Assembly: GCF_006345805.1 (NCBI RefSeq)
Contig: NC_043023.1
Coordinates: 17,670,001-17,734,000 of the forward strand
Origin: Octopus sinensis
Lineage: Eukaryota
Direction of reading: 5' to 3'
Length of the DNA stretch: 64,000 bases
Positions 2,387 to 62,623 of the stretch are shown in pieces (the first letter of the stretch is position 1; every line of letters starts with the position of its first letter). The notes beneath the pieces were generated by a model, which made no database searches, had not been told where the DNA came from, and saw only the letters and a program-made list of their open reading frames with translations. Both the position numbers and the translations under genes were made by a program.

Positions 2387-3053
2387 CTAGAAGCCTGAAG
2401 CTTGCCTATGTAACCTTTCGAGGTCAAACTTAATGGTCACAGGCTTCTGATCACTGTAGTTAACGTAGTGAAATTGTGCACGCACAAATACATCTTTAAC
2501 TATACATCTAAGAAATAGCCTGTCCATATAAGATCTAGAAGACCCATCGCTATTCATCCATGTCCACAGTGGAGCGTCTGGGTGTTCTAGTATATACAGA
2601 TTTAACCAGCAAAAAACGCTTAAGCAGATCGAAGAGATACGTGTTTCTCCTCCTATCCTATTCGAGCAAACACAATCCACTAAGGAGTGTGACGTTCCTA
2701 GAAAATTCTCTAGCCTAGAAAATTGTCTAACTGTCCGGCCGTCGGAGTTCATAAACAGCCACCAGCCTGGAAGACTTATCAATGATGAGGTTTACATCAA
2801 ATACGACCAGGCTACTCCCACCCCCGGATCAATAAAGATTACTCTTGTCGCTGAATCGAATTTTAGACCACCCCTCCTCACATTTCTCGTAGCAATTTAG
2901 GAGAGGAGAAATGCTTGTCAGTCCACTCAGCCAGGTTTCTCTAACTACTACCACATCCAAATTAAGCGACACGAGGTCATTGAGGAAAAGCCCTTATTTC
3001 CAATTCGATGACAGAATGCAAACATTAAAAGACTCAACGTTGAGAGTAAACAT
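2387..3053 (-). pseudogene. Tx1/L1-like LINE ORF2 N-terminal AP endonuclease fragment
   Basis: MFTLNVESFNV..NDLVSLNLDVVVVRETWL..LEHPDAPLWTWMNSDGSSRSYMDRLF..YSDQKPV..RQASGF, corresponding to APE motifs NV, D..ET, HP..TW..S.(I/L)DR and SDH; carries stops and frameshifts. Confidence 0.8.
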
Positions 3054-6851: not shown

Positions 6852-6948
6852 CATAGATACATAGATACATAGATACATAGATAGATAGATATATAGATAG
6901 ATAGATAGATAGATAGACAGACAGATGGATAGATAGAAACGTAGATAC

Positions 6949-20286: not shown

Positions 20287-20590
20287 AATGTTCGCAAAGG
20301 TAGAGGCGACCCTCATCCCTATCATCGTGCCCTATTTTTGTCTATAATTGTTCTCGTTAAAGTTGAAGAAGTTGTTCTGTATGATGGATTTTGTTCCTTC
20401 AACAATGAATTCTTTTCCTATTCGGTCATTTGGGAAATTTTCCTGCCAGGATTCTACAGCCATTATTCCGAAATCGTGAGGAATCGATGTGTAGAGGCTT
20501 ATTATATCGAATGAAACCAGAAAGGAGTCGTTACGGGAGATGGTTTAAAAAGATCAGATCATCCCTTATAAAACTCGGTATATGTTTCAC
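20287..20590 (-). pseudogene. Penelope-like RT fragment (duplicate of 867-1170)
   Basis: Same sequence and junctions. Confidence 0.8.
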
Positions 20591-28581: not shown

Positions 28582-29262
28582 CATGTAGGGAGTTTAAATG
28601 TTTACATCCTGTCATCGAATTGGAAATAAGGGCTTTTCCTCAATGACCTCGTGTCGCTAAATTTGGATGTGGAAGTAGTTAGAGAAACCTGGCTGAGTGG
28701 ACTGACAAGCATTTCTCCCCGCCTAAACTGCTACGAGAAATTTATTTCTCCTGGTCACCCAGAATGTGAAGACGGGCGGTCGTAGTTCTGCTCAAGAAAA
28801 ACTGGATTTAGCATCAAGAGTAATCTTTATTGATCCGGGGGTGGTCGTATTTGATGTAACCCTCATCATTGATAAGTCTTTCAGGCAGGTGGCTGTTTAT
28901 GAACTCCGACGCCCGGAGTTAGACAATTTTCTAGGCTAGAGAATTTTCTAGGTACGTCACACTCCTTAGTGGATTGTGTTTGCTCGAATACGGATAGGAG
29001 GAGAAACACCTACCTCTTCGATCTGCTTAAGCGTTTTTTGCTGGTAAATCTGTATATACTGGAACACGCCGACGCTCCCCTGTGGACATGGATGAATAGC
29101 GATGGATCTTCTGGATCTTATATGGACAGGCTATTTCTTAGATGTATAGATAAAGATGCATTTGTGCGTGCACAATTTCACTACGTCAACTACAGTGATC
29201 AGAAGCCTGTGACCAGTAAGTTTGACCCCAAAAGGTTACATAGGTAAGCTTCCGGCTTCTAG
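28582..29262 (+). pseudogene. Tx1/L1-like endonuclease fragment (inverted paralogue)
   Basis: LEHADAPLWTWMNSDGSSGSYMDRLF. Confidence 0.78.
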
Positions 29263-41371: not shown

Positions 41372-42085
41372 ATGTTTACACTCGATGTAGGGTGTTTAAA
41401 TGTTTACATCCTGTCATCGAATTGGAAATAAGGGCTTTTCCTCAATGACTTCGTGTCGCTTAATTTCGATGTGTTAGTAGTTAAAGAAACCTGGCTGAGA
41501 GGACTGACAAGCAATTCTCCCCCCCCCCCACCCTAAACTGCTACGAGAAATTTATTTCTCCTGGTCACCCAGAATGTGAAGAGGAGCGGTCGTAGTTCTG
41601 CTCAAGAAAAACTGGATTTAGAGACAAGAGTAATCTTTATTGATCTGGGGGTGGGAGTAGCCTGGGCGTATTTGATGTAACCCTCATCATTGATAAGTCT
41701 TTCAGGCTGGGGGCTGTTTATGAACTCCGACGGCCGGACAGTTAGACAATTTTCTAGGCTAGAGAATTTTCTAGGAACGTCACACTCCTTAGTGGATTGT
41801 GTTTGCTCGAATATGGATAGGAGGAGAAACACGTATATCTTCGATCTGTCTAAGCGTTTTTTGCTGGCAAATCTGTATATACTGGAACACCCAGACGCTC
41901 CGCTGTGGACTTGGATGAATAGCGATGGGTCTTCTAGATCTTATATGGACAGGCTATTTCTTAGATGTATAGTTAAAGATGTATTTGTGGGTGCACAATT
42001 TCACTACGTTAACTACAGTGATCAGAAGCCTGTGACCATTAAGTTTGACCTCGAAAGGTTACATAGGTAAGCTTCCGGCTTCTAG
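41372..42085 (+). pseudogene. Tx1/L1-like endonuclease fragment (inverted paralogue)
   Basis: Same motifs as 2387-3053. Confidence 0.8.
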
Positions 42086-57267: not shown

Positions 57268-57975
57268 ATGTTTACACTCGATGTAGGGTGTTTAAATGTT
57301 TACATCCTGTCATGGAATTGGAAATAAGGGCTTTTCCTCAATGACCTCGTGTTACTTAATTTGGATGTGTTAGTAGTTATAGAAACCTGGCTGAGTGGAC
57401 TGACAAGCAATTCTCCCCCCCCCCCCCTAAACTGTACGAGAAATTTATTTCTCCTGGTCACCCAGAATGTGAAGAGGGGTGGTCGTAGTTTCTCTCAAGA
57501 AAAACTGGATTTAGCATCAAAGAATCTTTATTGATCCGGGGGTGGGAGTAGCCTGGTCGTCTTTGATGTAACCCTCATCATTGATAAGTCTTTCAGGCTG
57601 GGGGCTGTTTATGAACTCCGACGGCCGGACAGTTAGACAATTTTCTAGGCTAGAGAATTTTCTAGGAACGTCACACTCCTTAGTGGATTGCGTTTGCTCG
57701 AATACGGATAGGAGGAGAAACACCTACCTCTTCGATCTGCTTAAGCGTTTTTTGCTGGCAAATCTGTATATACTGGAACACCCAGACGCTCCAATGTGGA
57801 CATGGATGAATAGCGATGGGTCTTCTAGATCTTATATGGACAGGCTATTTCTTAGATGTATAGATAAAGATGTATTTGTGCGTGCACAATTTCACTACGT
57901 CAACTACAGTGATCAGAATCCTGTGACCATTAAGTTTGACCTCGAAAGGTTACATAGGTAAGCTTCCGGCTTCTA
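57268..57975 (+). pseudogene. Tx1/L1-like endonuclease fragment (inverted paralogue)
   Basis: NLDVLVVIETWLS..LEHPDAPMWTWMNSDGSSRSYMDR. Confidence 0.8.
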
Positions 57976-58931: not shown

Positions 58932-59151
58932 GGTACATATCCGGGAATATTTGTTAATGGATAACCGGCAGTCACCCATGCATAAAGCATAGCCTCTCTG
59001 TGCCAACAATGTTATCCAATGGCAAGTCAAAGACAGATGCAGCTTCGGCCCAGGGATGTCACAACTCATTTCAACAGTTGAGTGAACTGGAGTAAAGTGA
59101 AATAAAGTGTCTTGCTCACTAACTTCAACACACAGCCGTTCCATGAATCGA

Positions 59152-59455
59152 CAATGTTCGCAAAGTAGGAGCTACCCTCATCCCTATCACCGTGCCCGAT
59201 TTTTGTCTATAATTGTCCTCGTTTAAGTTGAAGAAGTTGTTATGTAGGATGGATTTTGTTCCTTCAACAATGAATTCCTTTCTTATTCGGTCATTTGGGA
59301 AATTTTCCTGCCAGGATTCTACAGCCATTATTCCGAAATCGTGAGGAATCGATGTGTAGAGGTTTATTATATCGAATGAAACCAGAAAGGAGTCCTTACG
59401 GAGATAGTTTAAAAAGTTCAGATCATCCCTTAAAAACTCGGTATATGTTTCACAT
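59152..59455 (-). pseudogene. Penelope-like RT fragment (duplicate of 867-1170)
   Basis: Same sequence and junctions. Confidence 0.8.
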
Positions 59456-59585
59456 TCCCAAAAGTGTATCCTTCAATTTTGTAAAGAAAAATATTTCAAA
59501 TTTCTGTGCAATTGGCTCTAATTTCTATTACCATATACGGTCGCATACAAAACCTGCGAAACTGGGCCGTAATCTGTCAATTATT

Positions 59586-59666: not shown

Positions 59667-59721
<55 letters not shown>

Positions 59722-59933
59722 ATAGGGTGGCAAAAAATTTTGTAGAATTTTTTTGTCACCAGCGGCCTAGTGGGAAAAAATTAAATAGTCATAGACCATT
59801 TATAATTTCAACATCACAATCAAGGAACGGCCATAATAGGCCATTCACCCACTAGAAATAACAGCCAAAGCTTCAACCGCAAAATAACATTAATTCCGCA
59901 AACCGAGAAAATAAAAAAAACGTTTACCCTGTA

Positions 59934-60040
59934 ATTTCTTATACGATGCACCGTTTCATCTACTGTTTAATGGTAAACTAACCTGATTAAATTAAATCAA
60001 GCCAATCTTCCATAGGCCCTTAGATTCGTCAGTAAGAAAT
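59934..60040 (-). ncRNA. Type I hammerhead ribozyme, copy 1
   Basis: Minus strand: stem I AUUUCUUA, CUGACGA, stem II AUCUA/(58 nt)/UAGAU, GAAA, stem III CGGUGCAUCG, UA, then stem I' UAAGAAAU. Predicted cleavage after GUA, between 59942 and 59941. Confidence 0.88.
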
Positions 60041-60444
60041 AGCCAGATCGGAACAGATATTTTCACGAGGCACTTCTGTCCCTGCCTCGGCAATATCTGA
60101 CCTGAAATTTTCAAATCATCGCACTCGCGCCAAATTTATCGGCAGCAAATAAATATAAGCCGCCGATTCCATTACGGAATCAACCAGAAAATTCATAATT
60201 AATCAATATAGGGTGGCAAAAAAACTTTGTAGAATTTTTTTGTCACCAGCGGCCTAGTGGGAAAAAATTAAATAGTCATAGACCATTTATAAGTTCAACA
60301 TCACAATCAAGGAACGGCCATAATAGGCCATTCACCCACTAGAAATAACAGCCAAAGCTTCAACCGCAAAATAACATTAATTTTAATTCTGCAAACCAGG
60401 AGAAAATTTTAAAAAATAAAAAAAAACAAAACGTTTACCCTGTA

Positions 60445-60551
60445 ATTTCTTATACGATGCACCGTTTCATCCACTGTTTAATGGTAAACTAACCTGATTA
60501 AATTAAATCAAGCCAATCTTCCATAGGCCCTTAGATTCGTCAGTAAGAAAT
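60445..60551 (-). ncRNA. Type I hammerhead ribozyme, copy 2
   Basis: Identical core; stem II is AUCUA/UGGAU (U-G wobble keeps pairing). Predicted cleavage between 60453 and 60452. Confidence 0.88.
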
Positions 60552-60737
60552 AGTCAGATCGGAACAGATATTTTCACGAGGCACTTCTGTCCCTGCCTCG
60601 GCAATATCTGACCTAAAATTTTCAAATCATCGCACTCGCGCCAAATTTATCGGCGGCAAATAAATATAAGCCGCCGATTCCATTACGGAATCAACCAGAA
60701 AATTCATAATTAATCAATATAGGGTGGCAAAAAAAAA

Positions 60738-61148
60738 CATGGTTCAGGGTTCAGTCCCACTGCGTGGCATTTTGGGCAGGTGTCTTCTGCTATAGCCCCG
60801 GGCCGACTAATGCCTTGTGAGTGGATTTGGTAGACCGAAAATGAAAGAAGCCTGTCGTATATATGTATAATATATATATATATATATATAATATATATAT
60901 ATTATATATATATATATATATATATTATGTATGTTGTGTTGTGTGTCTGTGTTTGTCCCCCTAGCATTGCTTGACAACCGATGCTGGTGTGATTACGTCC
61001 CCGTCATCTAGCGGTTCGGCAAAAAGAGACCGATAGAATAAGTACTGGGCTTACAAAGAATAAGTCCCGGGGGTTGATTTGCTCGACTAAAGGCGGTGCT
61101 CCAGCATGGCCGCAGTCAAATGACTGAAACAAGTAAAAGAAAGAGAAA
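60738..61148 (+). mobile_element. SINE family C lacking its first ~45 bp
   Basis: Starts at CATGGTTCAGGGTTCAG directly after the tandem element; the remainder matches 21021-21395. Confidence 0.88.
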
Positions 61149-61956: not shown

Positions 61957-62623
61957 CTAGAAGCCTGAAGCTTGCCTATGTAACCTTTCGAGGTCAAACT
62001 TAATGGTCACAGGCTTCTGATCACTGTAGTTGACGTAGTGAAATTGTGCACGCACAAATACATCTTTAACTATACATCTAAGAAATAGCCTGTCCATATA
62101 AGATCTAGAAGACCCATCGCTATTCATCCATGTCCACAGTGGAGCGTCTGGGTGTTCTAGTATATACAGATTTAACCAGCAAAAAACGCTTAAGCAGATC
62201 GAAGAGATACGTGTTTCTCCTCCTATCCTATTCGAGCAAACGCAATCCACTAAGGAGTGTGACGTTCCTAGAAAATTCTCTAGCCTAGAAAATTGTCTAA
62301 CTGTCCGGCCGTCGGAGTTCATAAACAGCCCCCAGCCTGAAAGACTTATCAATGATGAGGGTTACATCAAAGACGACCAGGCTACTCCCACCCCCGGATC
62401 AATAAAGATTACTCTTGTCGCTGAATCGAATTTTAGACCACCTATCCTCACATTTCTCGTAGCAATTTAGGAGAGGAGAAATGCTTGTCAGTCCACTCAG
62501 CCAGGTTTCTCTAACTACTACAACATCCAAATTAAGCGACACGAGGTCATTGAGGAAAAGCCCTTATTTCCAATTCGATGATAGAATGCAAATATTGAAA
62601 GACTCAACGTTGAGAGTAAACAT
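61957..62623 (-). pseudogene. Tx1/L1-like endonuclease fragment (duplicate of 2387-3053)
   Basis: Near-identical ORF-track translation. Confidence 0.8.

What the first reader, a model, noticed from the sequence alone, without database searches (positions are those of the whole stretch)
59934..60040. Unusual hammerhead architecture: near-palindromic stem III and a long structured insert in stem II
Seen: stem III ACGGUGCAUCGU is one base away from a perfect palindrome and leaves only a 2-nt loop if fully paired. Loop II is 58 nt and can itself pair (UUGGCUUGAUU/AAUCAGGUUAG). Stem I can extend past an internal loop (UCUG/CAGG). Established: hammerheads with short palindromic stem III cleave as dimers by swapping stem III strands. 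Inference: the two adjacent copies may form a double hammerhead, so only multimeric transcripts are processed efficiently.
Basis: partly seen in the sequence, partly recalled or inferred. Interest (0 to 1): 0.7.

Follow-up and report, generated by a model that had tools for sequence, protein, structure and literature searches.

The report
Pseudoknotted hammerhead in jumping RNA repeats
This is a hammerhead-type RNA fold, predicted to cut itself, in a 490-base repeat copied thousands of times in this animal genome; its palindromic arm is a known feature that likely lets two neighbouring copies help each other cut, while its long extra hairpin and a predicted clasp between two arms are a form I did not find described.

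Summary
On the minus strand, 59934-60040 is a type I hammerhead with an intact core, a 58-nt loop II that folds into a long hairpin, and a near-palindromic stem III. A second copy lies 511 nt upstream. Both are units of a ~490-bp dispersed tandem repeat, a non-LTR retrozyme; one 24-base stretch of the ribozyme has 2,131 exact copies in the genome.

The palindromic stem III is normal for animal type I hammerheads, and the dimer idea is in print. It is plausible here: the palindrome survives across diverged families, and the double fold is calculated as more stable in 9 of 11 arrays. 'Only multimers' is not shown.

The long insert is kept in all related families and leaves an internal loop that pairs with the stem I bulge, a predicted pseudoknot with two-sided changes at three positions. 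And 30 of 41 arrays are inverted two-armed insertions with two fixed 3' ends, usually beside (AT)n, 129 and ~232 nt past the cut site, as expected from Penelope-type copying of a circular or uncut RNA. Cleavage and expression are untested. Verdict: new variant of a known kind.

The parts
59717..60737 (-). Retrozyme array: two tandem units (~489 and ~511 bp) plus ~20 bp; single arm, 5'-truncated, 3' end of type B
   Evidence: units 94% identical, mainly through a length difference in a T-rich stretch
59934..60040 (-). Type I hammerhead, copy 1 (stems I-III and core)
   Evidence: two-sided changes in stem I (2 pairs) and stem II (1 pair) among 29 copies
59941..59942 (-). Predicted cleavage site of copy 1 (after GUA)
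   Evidence: position follows from the hammerhead consensus; cleavage not tested
59943..59954 (-). Stem III, 12-nt near-palindrome with central UGCA
59970..60013 (-). Long hairpin that extends stem II (4 bp + 14 bp, 6-nt loop)
   Evidence: z -4.2; 6 of 19 pairs with pair-keeping one-sided changes, 3 with breaks, none two-sided; hairpins of other sequence at the same place in families C and D
60015..60018 (-). 3' strand of the predicted pseudoknot (GGCC, in the internal loop of stem II)
60041..60044 (-). 5' strand of the predicted pseudoknot (GGCU, bulge of stem I)
59928..59931 (-). 3' strand of the distal extension of stem I (pairs with 60047-60044)
   Evidence: the AGGG here is kept in all families, with different 5' partners
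60445..60551 (-). Type I hammerhead, copy 2; predicted cut between 60453 and 60452; has a U.G in stem II and GACU (60555-60552) in place of GGCU, which breaks one pseudoknot pair
59942..60452 (-). 511-nt monomer that two cuts would release (candidate circular RNA)
   Evidence: length; circle not shown
59813..59830 (-). Place in the unit where the other fixed 3' end (type A) falls in other arrays
59667..59716 (.). (AT)n microsatellite at the 3' end of the array, the likely insertion target

Best explanation
The motif is the hammerhead of a non-coding tandem repeat (non-LTR retrozyme) that likely cuts multi-unit transcripts into unit-length RNAs, probably best when two neighbouring copies swap their palindromic stem III strands, with a predicted pseudoknot holding stems I and II side by side. 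Shown from sequence: intact core, covarying stems, conserved palindrome, conserved long hairpin, thousands of dispersed copies, fixed insertion ends. Inferred steps: (1) an array is transcribed; (2) the hammerheads cut, a single one slowly because its helix III is marginal (about 0 kcal/mol), a tandem pair faster through a 12-bp shared helix III; both pseudoknot strands lie on the same 'enzyme' half, so the clasp survives the strand swap; (3) the monomer is ligated to a circle, where the lone hammerhead cuts poorly; (4) a Penelope-type reverse transcriptase/GIY-YIG endonuclease nicks (AT)n, primes at two fixed places on the RNA and copies round it, which gives two inverted arms of several units. 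The long hairpin most likely serves to close the internal loop that presents the pseudoknot strand.
For: Core and stems. Palindrome kept through sequence change: family A ACGGUGCAUCGU, F ACGGUAUACCGU, B ACGAUGCAUUGU or ACAAUGCAUUGU, C ACUAUGCAUAGU, E ACGUUGCAACGU, D ACCAUGGU; central UGCA in 96 of the first 100 listed of 1,446 GUC-type copies. Helix III hairpins -2.9 to +2.9 kcal/mol; self-duplexes of these family sequences -11 to -19. Double fold favoured in 9 of 11 arrays. Pseudoknot: G-C to A-U in family F (96 of the first 100 listed of 556 A-bulge copies have the U partner; only 18 copies combine G with a non-C partner, 13 of them G.U); C-G to U-A in family E; U-A versus A-U at the outer pair. 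Own partners score 36.5 against 30.2 for shuffled partners over 9 distinct strand pairs, p 0.0017. Insertions: every 3' end of 41 arrays is of type A or B; 30 of 41 have one of each on inverted arms; 13 of 22 array-private fixed variants lie on both arms. PLE hallmarks as in PMC8557442 (passages). A young RT plus GIY-YIG family with two 3' ends at (AT)n and a similar terminal motif is in the same genome.
Against: No cleavage, expression or circle data. The active monomer fold is 2.7 kcal/mol above the free ensemble and the double fold is also 3.1 above it; these numbers ignore pseudoknot and magnesium. Two variants with no calculated dimer gain spread: UAUA with G.U (+0.8) and UGAA (+6.9; 15 copies at 5 places, two whole arrays). 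Pseudoknot exceptions: of 74 family B copies 5 have G.G at the outer pair and 3 break an inner pair; many family C copies are mismatched; window copy 2 breaks one pair. The shuffle test used hand-picked representatives and ignores relatedness; each two-sided change may be one event. Conserved UGCA could be kept for its sequence and not for its symmetry. Within-array distance (median 0.5%) is no smaller than distance to the nearest other locus (0.5%). No extended similarity between the unit and the candidate PLE. In the 2026 preprint 8 of 9 frog retrozyme dimers did not cleave in vitro.
Confidence: 0.62

Rival explanations
1. Monomer-competent ribozyme: the pseudoknot stabilises the fold enough that each copy cuts alone during transcription; the palindrome is inherited and merely tolerated.
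For: Three pairs beyond A15.1-U16.1 plus a tetraloop, more than the 1-2 bp of known dimer-dependent forms (PMC4209133, PMC7229834). Coral and mussel monomers cut at 0.8 and 0.1 per min (PMC7229834). UGAA variant fills two arrays. Copy 1 can fold about 500 nt before its partner is made (inference).
Against: Helix III is about 0 kcal/mol in most lineages. The loop stays palindromic through UGCA, UAUA and CAUG. Family D spread with a 2-pair helix of +2.9 kcal/mol. The axolotl form with 2 bp plus tetraloop cut only 22% in an hour as a monomer (PMC7229834).
Confidence: 0.23
2. Strictly dimer-dependent ribozyme: monomers are essentially inactive.
For: Only about 1% of the isolated motif is calculated to be in the active secondary structure; precedent in newt, axolotl and PLE hammerheads (PMC7229834, PMC4209133, PMC6765202 passages).
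Against: The calculation leaves out the pseudoknot; family F (at least 556 copies) has a perfect helix III of -2.9 kcal/mol; variants without dimer gain propagate.
Confidence: 0.12
3. A DNA-level satellite that carries a hammerhead-like relic and spreads by recombination, not through RNA.
For: No RNA evidence was obtained; tandem arrangement alone fits unequal crossing-over.
Against: Short arrays on many chromosomes; fixed 3' ends and ragged 5' ends; G.U pairs that work only on one strand; two-sided changes in RNA helices.
Confidence: 0.03

Closest known systems
Non-LTR retrozymes of metazoans (Cervera and de la Pena 2020, PMC7229834; parts 2-4 of 6 read, supplement too large to read)
   Same: Non-coding AT-rich tandem unit, one type I hammerhead per unit, dispersed arrays, PLEs in the same genome.
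   Different: Unit ~490 nt against the 150-450 bp given there; helix II carries a 25-50 nt hairpin and a predicted pseudoknot; the main text has no 'octopus', 'cephalopod', 'inverted' or 'microsatellite'.
Dimeric type I hammerheads with palindromic helix III: newt and axolotl repeats, PLE minimal hammerheads (PMC4209133, parts 1-2 of 4 read; PMC6765202 and PMC6155905, passages; Lunse et al. 2017 not held, title only)
   Same: Self-complementary helix III and loop that allow a strand-swapped double hammerhead in tandem transcripts.
   Different: Helix III here is 3 pairs plus A15.1-U16.1, not 0-2; helices I and II are long; pair 10.1-11.1 is A-U, A.C, A.A or U.U in family A.
Pseudoknotted hammerheads (Perreault et al. 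2011, PMC3088659; passages and supplement legends only)
   Same: [quoted passage not shown]
   Different: The example described in those passages joins loop I to a 3' tail in type II; here a stem I bulge pairs with an internal loop of stem II in a repeat-borne type I motif. I could not see their figures or alignment file, which may hold such cases.
Penelope-like elements and their non-autonomous derivatives (Craig et al. 2021, PMC8557442, passages; Li et al. 2026 preprint 10.64898/2026.07.22.740005, parts 1-3 of 5 read, supplements closed)
   Same: Partial tandems, inverted 5'-truncated arm, a tail at one end only, (TA)n targets; non-autonomous multicopy head-to-tail Chlamys elements are mentioned.
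   Different: No reading frame; the tail is ~100 nt against 30-40 bp; no extended homology to the terminal repeat of the PLE families examined. The preprint argues from homology and co-occurrence and does not describe inverted arms.

Membership tests
Type I hammerhead ribozyme | Core CUGANGA / GAAA / UH around a three-way junction | tested here: met
Type I hammerhead ribozyme | Helices I-III pair, helix I open-ended, with covariation | tested here: met
Type I hammerhead ribozyme | Match to an Rfam hammerhead model | tested here: not met
   no hit at gathering score or at E up to 10; probably because of the insert (inference)
Type I hammerhead ribozyme | Site-specific self-cleavage | not testable with these tools
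   only assembled contigs were available
Canonical metazoan type I hammerhead | 4-bp helix II closed by a short loop 2 that contacts loop 1 | tested here: not met
   loop II is 58 nt with an internal loop and hairpin
Dimeric (double) hammerhead | Self-complementary helix III and loop | tested here: met
Dimeric (double) hammerhead | Helix III too weak for the monomer, dimer much faster | tested here: inconclusive
   calculated only: 9 of 11 arrays favour the double fold, 2 do not
Non-LTR retrozyme | Short tandem unit, one type I hammerhead per unit, dispersed multicopy, GC under 50% | tested here: met
Non-LTR retrozyme | No protein-coding frame | tested here: met
   no open frame of 110 aa or more within the array
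Non-LTR retrozyme | Expressed as linear and circular unit-length RNA | not testable with these tools
   contigs cannot show ends or circles
PLE-mobilised element | Partial tandems, inverted 5'-truncated arm, tail at one end, microsatellite target | tested here: met
   30 of 41 arrays with ends A and B on inverted arms
PLE-mobilised element | Sequence shared with the terminal repeat of an autonomous PLE | tested here: inconclusive
   no extended match in 34 loci with RT; a 9-10 base motif near the tail end is shared

The most novel reading that the evidence does not exclude
An old clan of several thousand retrozyme copies uses a hammerhead architecture not described before: a bulge-to-internal-loop pseudoknot built on one strand, a conserved long hairpin, and a helix III held at the edge of stability as a switch, so that tandem precursors cut in pairs while the circle stays shut. 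Its two-armed insertions, with fixed ends far from the cut site, are a genomic record of Penelope-type rolling-circle reverse transcription of a circular RNA, and point to the partner element.
Probability: 0.35. Interest if true: 0.72.

Novelty: new variant of a known kind. Interest (0 to 1): 0.52.

Why it matters
The dimer idea itself is old. What is added: (1) a hammerhead form that Rfam misses altogether, so thousands of ribozyme copies in this genome, and perhaps in others, would be overlooked; (2) natural variants that already supply the mutant-and-rescue series for the pseudoknot and for helix III, which makes the monomer-versus-dimer question directly testable; (3) insertion ends that bear on an open question named in both retrozyme papers read, namely which machinery moves animal retrozymes and whether the template is a circle.

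Tried and rejected
Rfam: no hammerhead hit.

Expression: no RNA holder listed; all runs laid were contigs, so nothing follows about expression or ends. Their variant tables served only as leads; the stretch is held by runs of four coded organisms.

Dimeric circles as template: looked for alternating variants along arrays; patterns were irregular and partly look like assembly noise; no conclusion.

Within-array homogeneity as proof of a single template: not discriminating, since the nearest other locus is as close.

A-to-I editing of the hairpin written back into DNA: A>G is 3 of 22 private fixed changes, no excess.

The broken RT fragment beside the array (59128-59580) as part of the element: rejected; microsatellites separate them and none of the 19 other RT loci or 14 longer PLE loci examined matches the window's unit at length.

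Internal Pol III promoter boxes: looked at by eye only, not convincing, not tested.

One search had a miscounted pattern (1 unrelated hit) and was repeated. Searches were script errors, rerun. The window array failed to parse and family B representative L126 (14 of 15 used).

Literature searches listed no paper on a cephalopod retrozyme or on this architecture; most subscription papers, Lunse et al. 2017 and the supplements of PMC7229834 and of the preprint could not be seen and may bear on novelty. Look-ups of earlier scan notes by place, words and sequence found nothing on this repeat.

Full report
1. Observation. The motif is on the minus strand and is as described: stem I of 8 bp, core CUGACGA, stem II of 5 bp, a 58-nt loop II, GAAA, stem III ACGGUGCAUCGU and a GUA cut site between 59942 and 59941. 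Loop II folds into 4 + 14 bp (z -4.2, 0 of 200 shuffles as stable), and the whole motif folds much better on the minus strand (z -4.05) than on the plus strand (z -1.9). A second copy lies 511 nt upstream. Rfam finds no hammerhead in the window, even at E up to 10 over the array.

2. What it belongs to. The two copies are units of a ~490-bp repeat. A search of the own genome (2.7 Gb; size and about 30 chromosome-scale contigs fit an octopus, recalled and not shown by a call) gave 155 matches from 40 of 1,456 candidates scored, the full-length ones 93-99% identical, in short arrays on many contigs. The 24-mer round the cut site occurs 2,131 times, its reversed control 0 times. Pattern searches uncovered relatives: F (556 matches to its 5' pattern; 89% identical to the window unit), B (92 matches; about 79-87%), E (75-78%), C (67-72%) and D (73-75% over a part). 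A further 1,446 copies have a GUC site. This is the anatomy of a non-LTR retrozyme as described in PMC7229834 (parts 2-4 of 6 read).

3. The ribozyme is under selection. In 29 family A copies 96.7% of 1,158 cells pair; stem I has two pairs with two-sided changes and stem II one; the insert has six pair-keeping one-sided changes, three pairs with breaks and no two-sided change (related rows, so not a probability). Among majority letters of up to 69 arrays the fixed core does not vary and N7 takes all four bases (many arrays were found with core-containing patterns). Position 10.1-11.1 is loose (A-U, A.C, A.A, U.U); mismatches there are known (PMC3088659, passages).

4. Stem III and the dimer idea. 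PMC4209133 (parts 1-2 of 4) states that most metazoan type I hammerheads have a 1-2 bp helix III under a palindromic loop and fold as dimers, so the palindrome is not unusual. Here it is kept through sequence change: ACGGUGCAUCGU (A), ACGGUAUACCGU (F), ACGAUGCAUUGU and ACAAUGCAUUGU (B), ACUAUGCAUAGU (C), ACGUUGCAACGU (E), ACCAUGGU (D). 96 of the first 100 listed GUC-type copies have the central UGCA. As hairpins these helices lie between -2.9 and +2.9 kcal/mol. With both cores held open, the strand-swapped double fold is 5.6 kcal/mol below two separate hammerheads in the window array and 3.7-10.4 below in 8 of 10 other arrays. Against strict dependence: two arrays show no gain (UAUA with G.U +0.8; UGAA +6.9), and the UGAA variant has 15 copies at 5 places and fills two arrays on both arms. 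The helix is longer than in known dimer-dependent forms, and coral and mussel monomers cut at 0.8 and 0.1 per min, while an axolotl form with 2 bp plus tetraloop cut 22% in an hour alone and much better as a dimer (PMC7229834). The energies omit tertiary contacts and magnesium. My reading: dimer-assisted, not dimer-only.

5. The insert and a predicted pseudoknot. Every family has a hairpin at this place, shorter and of different AU-rich sequence in C and D, so it is old and structural. It turns loop II into an internal loop whose 5' side (GGCC, 60018-60015) is complementary to the bulge next to stem I (GGCU, 60044-60041). The strand directions fit a helix stacked on stem I (inference). Partners change together: A-U for G-C in family F (96 of the first 100 listed of 556; the 4 others have C), while G with a non-C partner occurs 18 times, 13 as G.U, four of them in an F-type array; U-A for C-G in family E; U-A versus A-U at the outer pair in C/D and E; and a family B sub-lineage moves the G.U from one end to the other (5 of 74 copies). 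The two strands also stay roughly in register as the helices change length: 5-8 nt from the core on stem I and 4-7 nt on stem II. Own partners beat shuffled partners (36.5 against 30.2 over 9 distinct strand pairs, p 0.0017; 14 of 15 chosen representatives parsed; hand-picked, relatedness ignored). Against: of the 74 family B copies 59 are GGCU/GGCC, 5 have G.G at the outer pair, 3 break an inner pair and 2 gain a G.U; many old family C copies mismatch; window copy 2 has GACU. I put the pseudoknot at about 0.8. Such stem I-II pseudoknots are known in general (PMC3088659, passages); I did not find this bulge-to-internal-loop form with a long extension in an animal repeat in the searches listed, but could not see that paper's figures or alignments.

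6. How it spreads. I mapped 41 arrays (20 from the best hits, 20 from variant lists, and the window). Every 3' end falls at one of two places: A, 129 nt past the cut site, or B, about 232 nt past it, usually beside (AT)n. 30 of 41 arrays have two inverted arms with one A and one B end, 1 has two B ends, and 10, including the window, have one arm. 5' ends are ragged. Arrays hold 1-13 cut sites. Family B shows the same two ends. Partial tandems, an inverted truncated arm, a one-sided tail and (TA)n targets are PLE hallmarks (PMC8557442 and its preprint, passages). A cut linear monomer could template only 129-232 nt from these ends, so the template must be a circle or an uncut multimer (inference). 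13 of 22 array-private fixed variants lie on both arms, which fits one unit copied repeatedly, though within-array distance is no smaller than distance to the nearest other locus. The genome holds a young RT plus GIY-YIG family with 784-aa open frames. Its 3' region has a minimal hammerhead with a palindromic 6-nt helix III, two 3' ends 56 and 94-98 nt past its cut site at (AT)n, and CACCCU(U)AUA near the longer end, as at retrozyme end B. That is a candidate partner, found after the fact; no extended homology was seen.

7. Mechanism. Shown: anatomy, covariation, copy numbers, ends. Inferred: transcription of arrays; cutting, helped by pairing of neighbouring copies; ligation to a circle (RtcB in PMC7229834); in the circle the active fold is calculated 4.3 kcal/mol above the free ensemble, so it would be a stable template; PLE-type priming at two sites and rolling-circle reverse transcription. 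No RNA holder was listed and only contigs could be laid, so expression is open. One caution from print: 8 of 9 frog retrozyme dimers did not cut in vitro (2026 preprint, parts 1-3 of 5).

8. Verdict. The added value is the conserved extended helix II with a covarying pseudoknot, missed by Rfam, and the two-ended insertion signature. New variant of a known kind; interest 0.52.

Noticed in passing
window 59128-59580 (minus); also about 869-1132 and 20290-20553 (minus): Broken reverse transcriptase fragments of PLE type (Pfam RVT_1 E 0.00012 for the first); the three are 80-91% alike at protein level.
   Followed up: partly
L199:3829-6180 (+) and 6868-6910; same family in L197, L198, L200-L203, L209, L210: Young RT plus GIY-YIG element with 784-aa open frames and a CxxC linker; its 3' region carries a minimal hammerhead with the U3/A8 core variant and helix III ACCGGU, and two alternative 3' ends at (AT)n.
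   Followed up: partly
L318:1459-1562 (-), L315, L316, L292, L279: Family D: same clan with helix III cut to 8 nt (ACCAUGGU) and a shorter hairpin; longer 12-nt forms occur in L301 and L302. Natural test case for obligate dimer cutting.
   Followed up: partly
L200 near 7219 (-) and L210 near 7108 (+): Two further minimal hammerhead-like motifs with palindromic AACGUU at helix III, from other repeat families.
   Followed up: no
window 2697-2729, 28920-28952, 41743-41775, 57634-57666, 62267-62299: The same 17-bp double repeat occurs five times, probably part of another dispersed element.
   Followed up: no
window 60738-60860: The 5' end of the array abuts non-microsatellite sequence that looks like a SINE (by eye; similar ends flank L109 and L122), so this insertion may have been truncated or interrupted.
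   Followed up: no
L114 (G000:C14:22914000-22922500): A whole two-armed insertion is duplicated head to tail about 1.6 kb apart.
   Followed up: no
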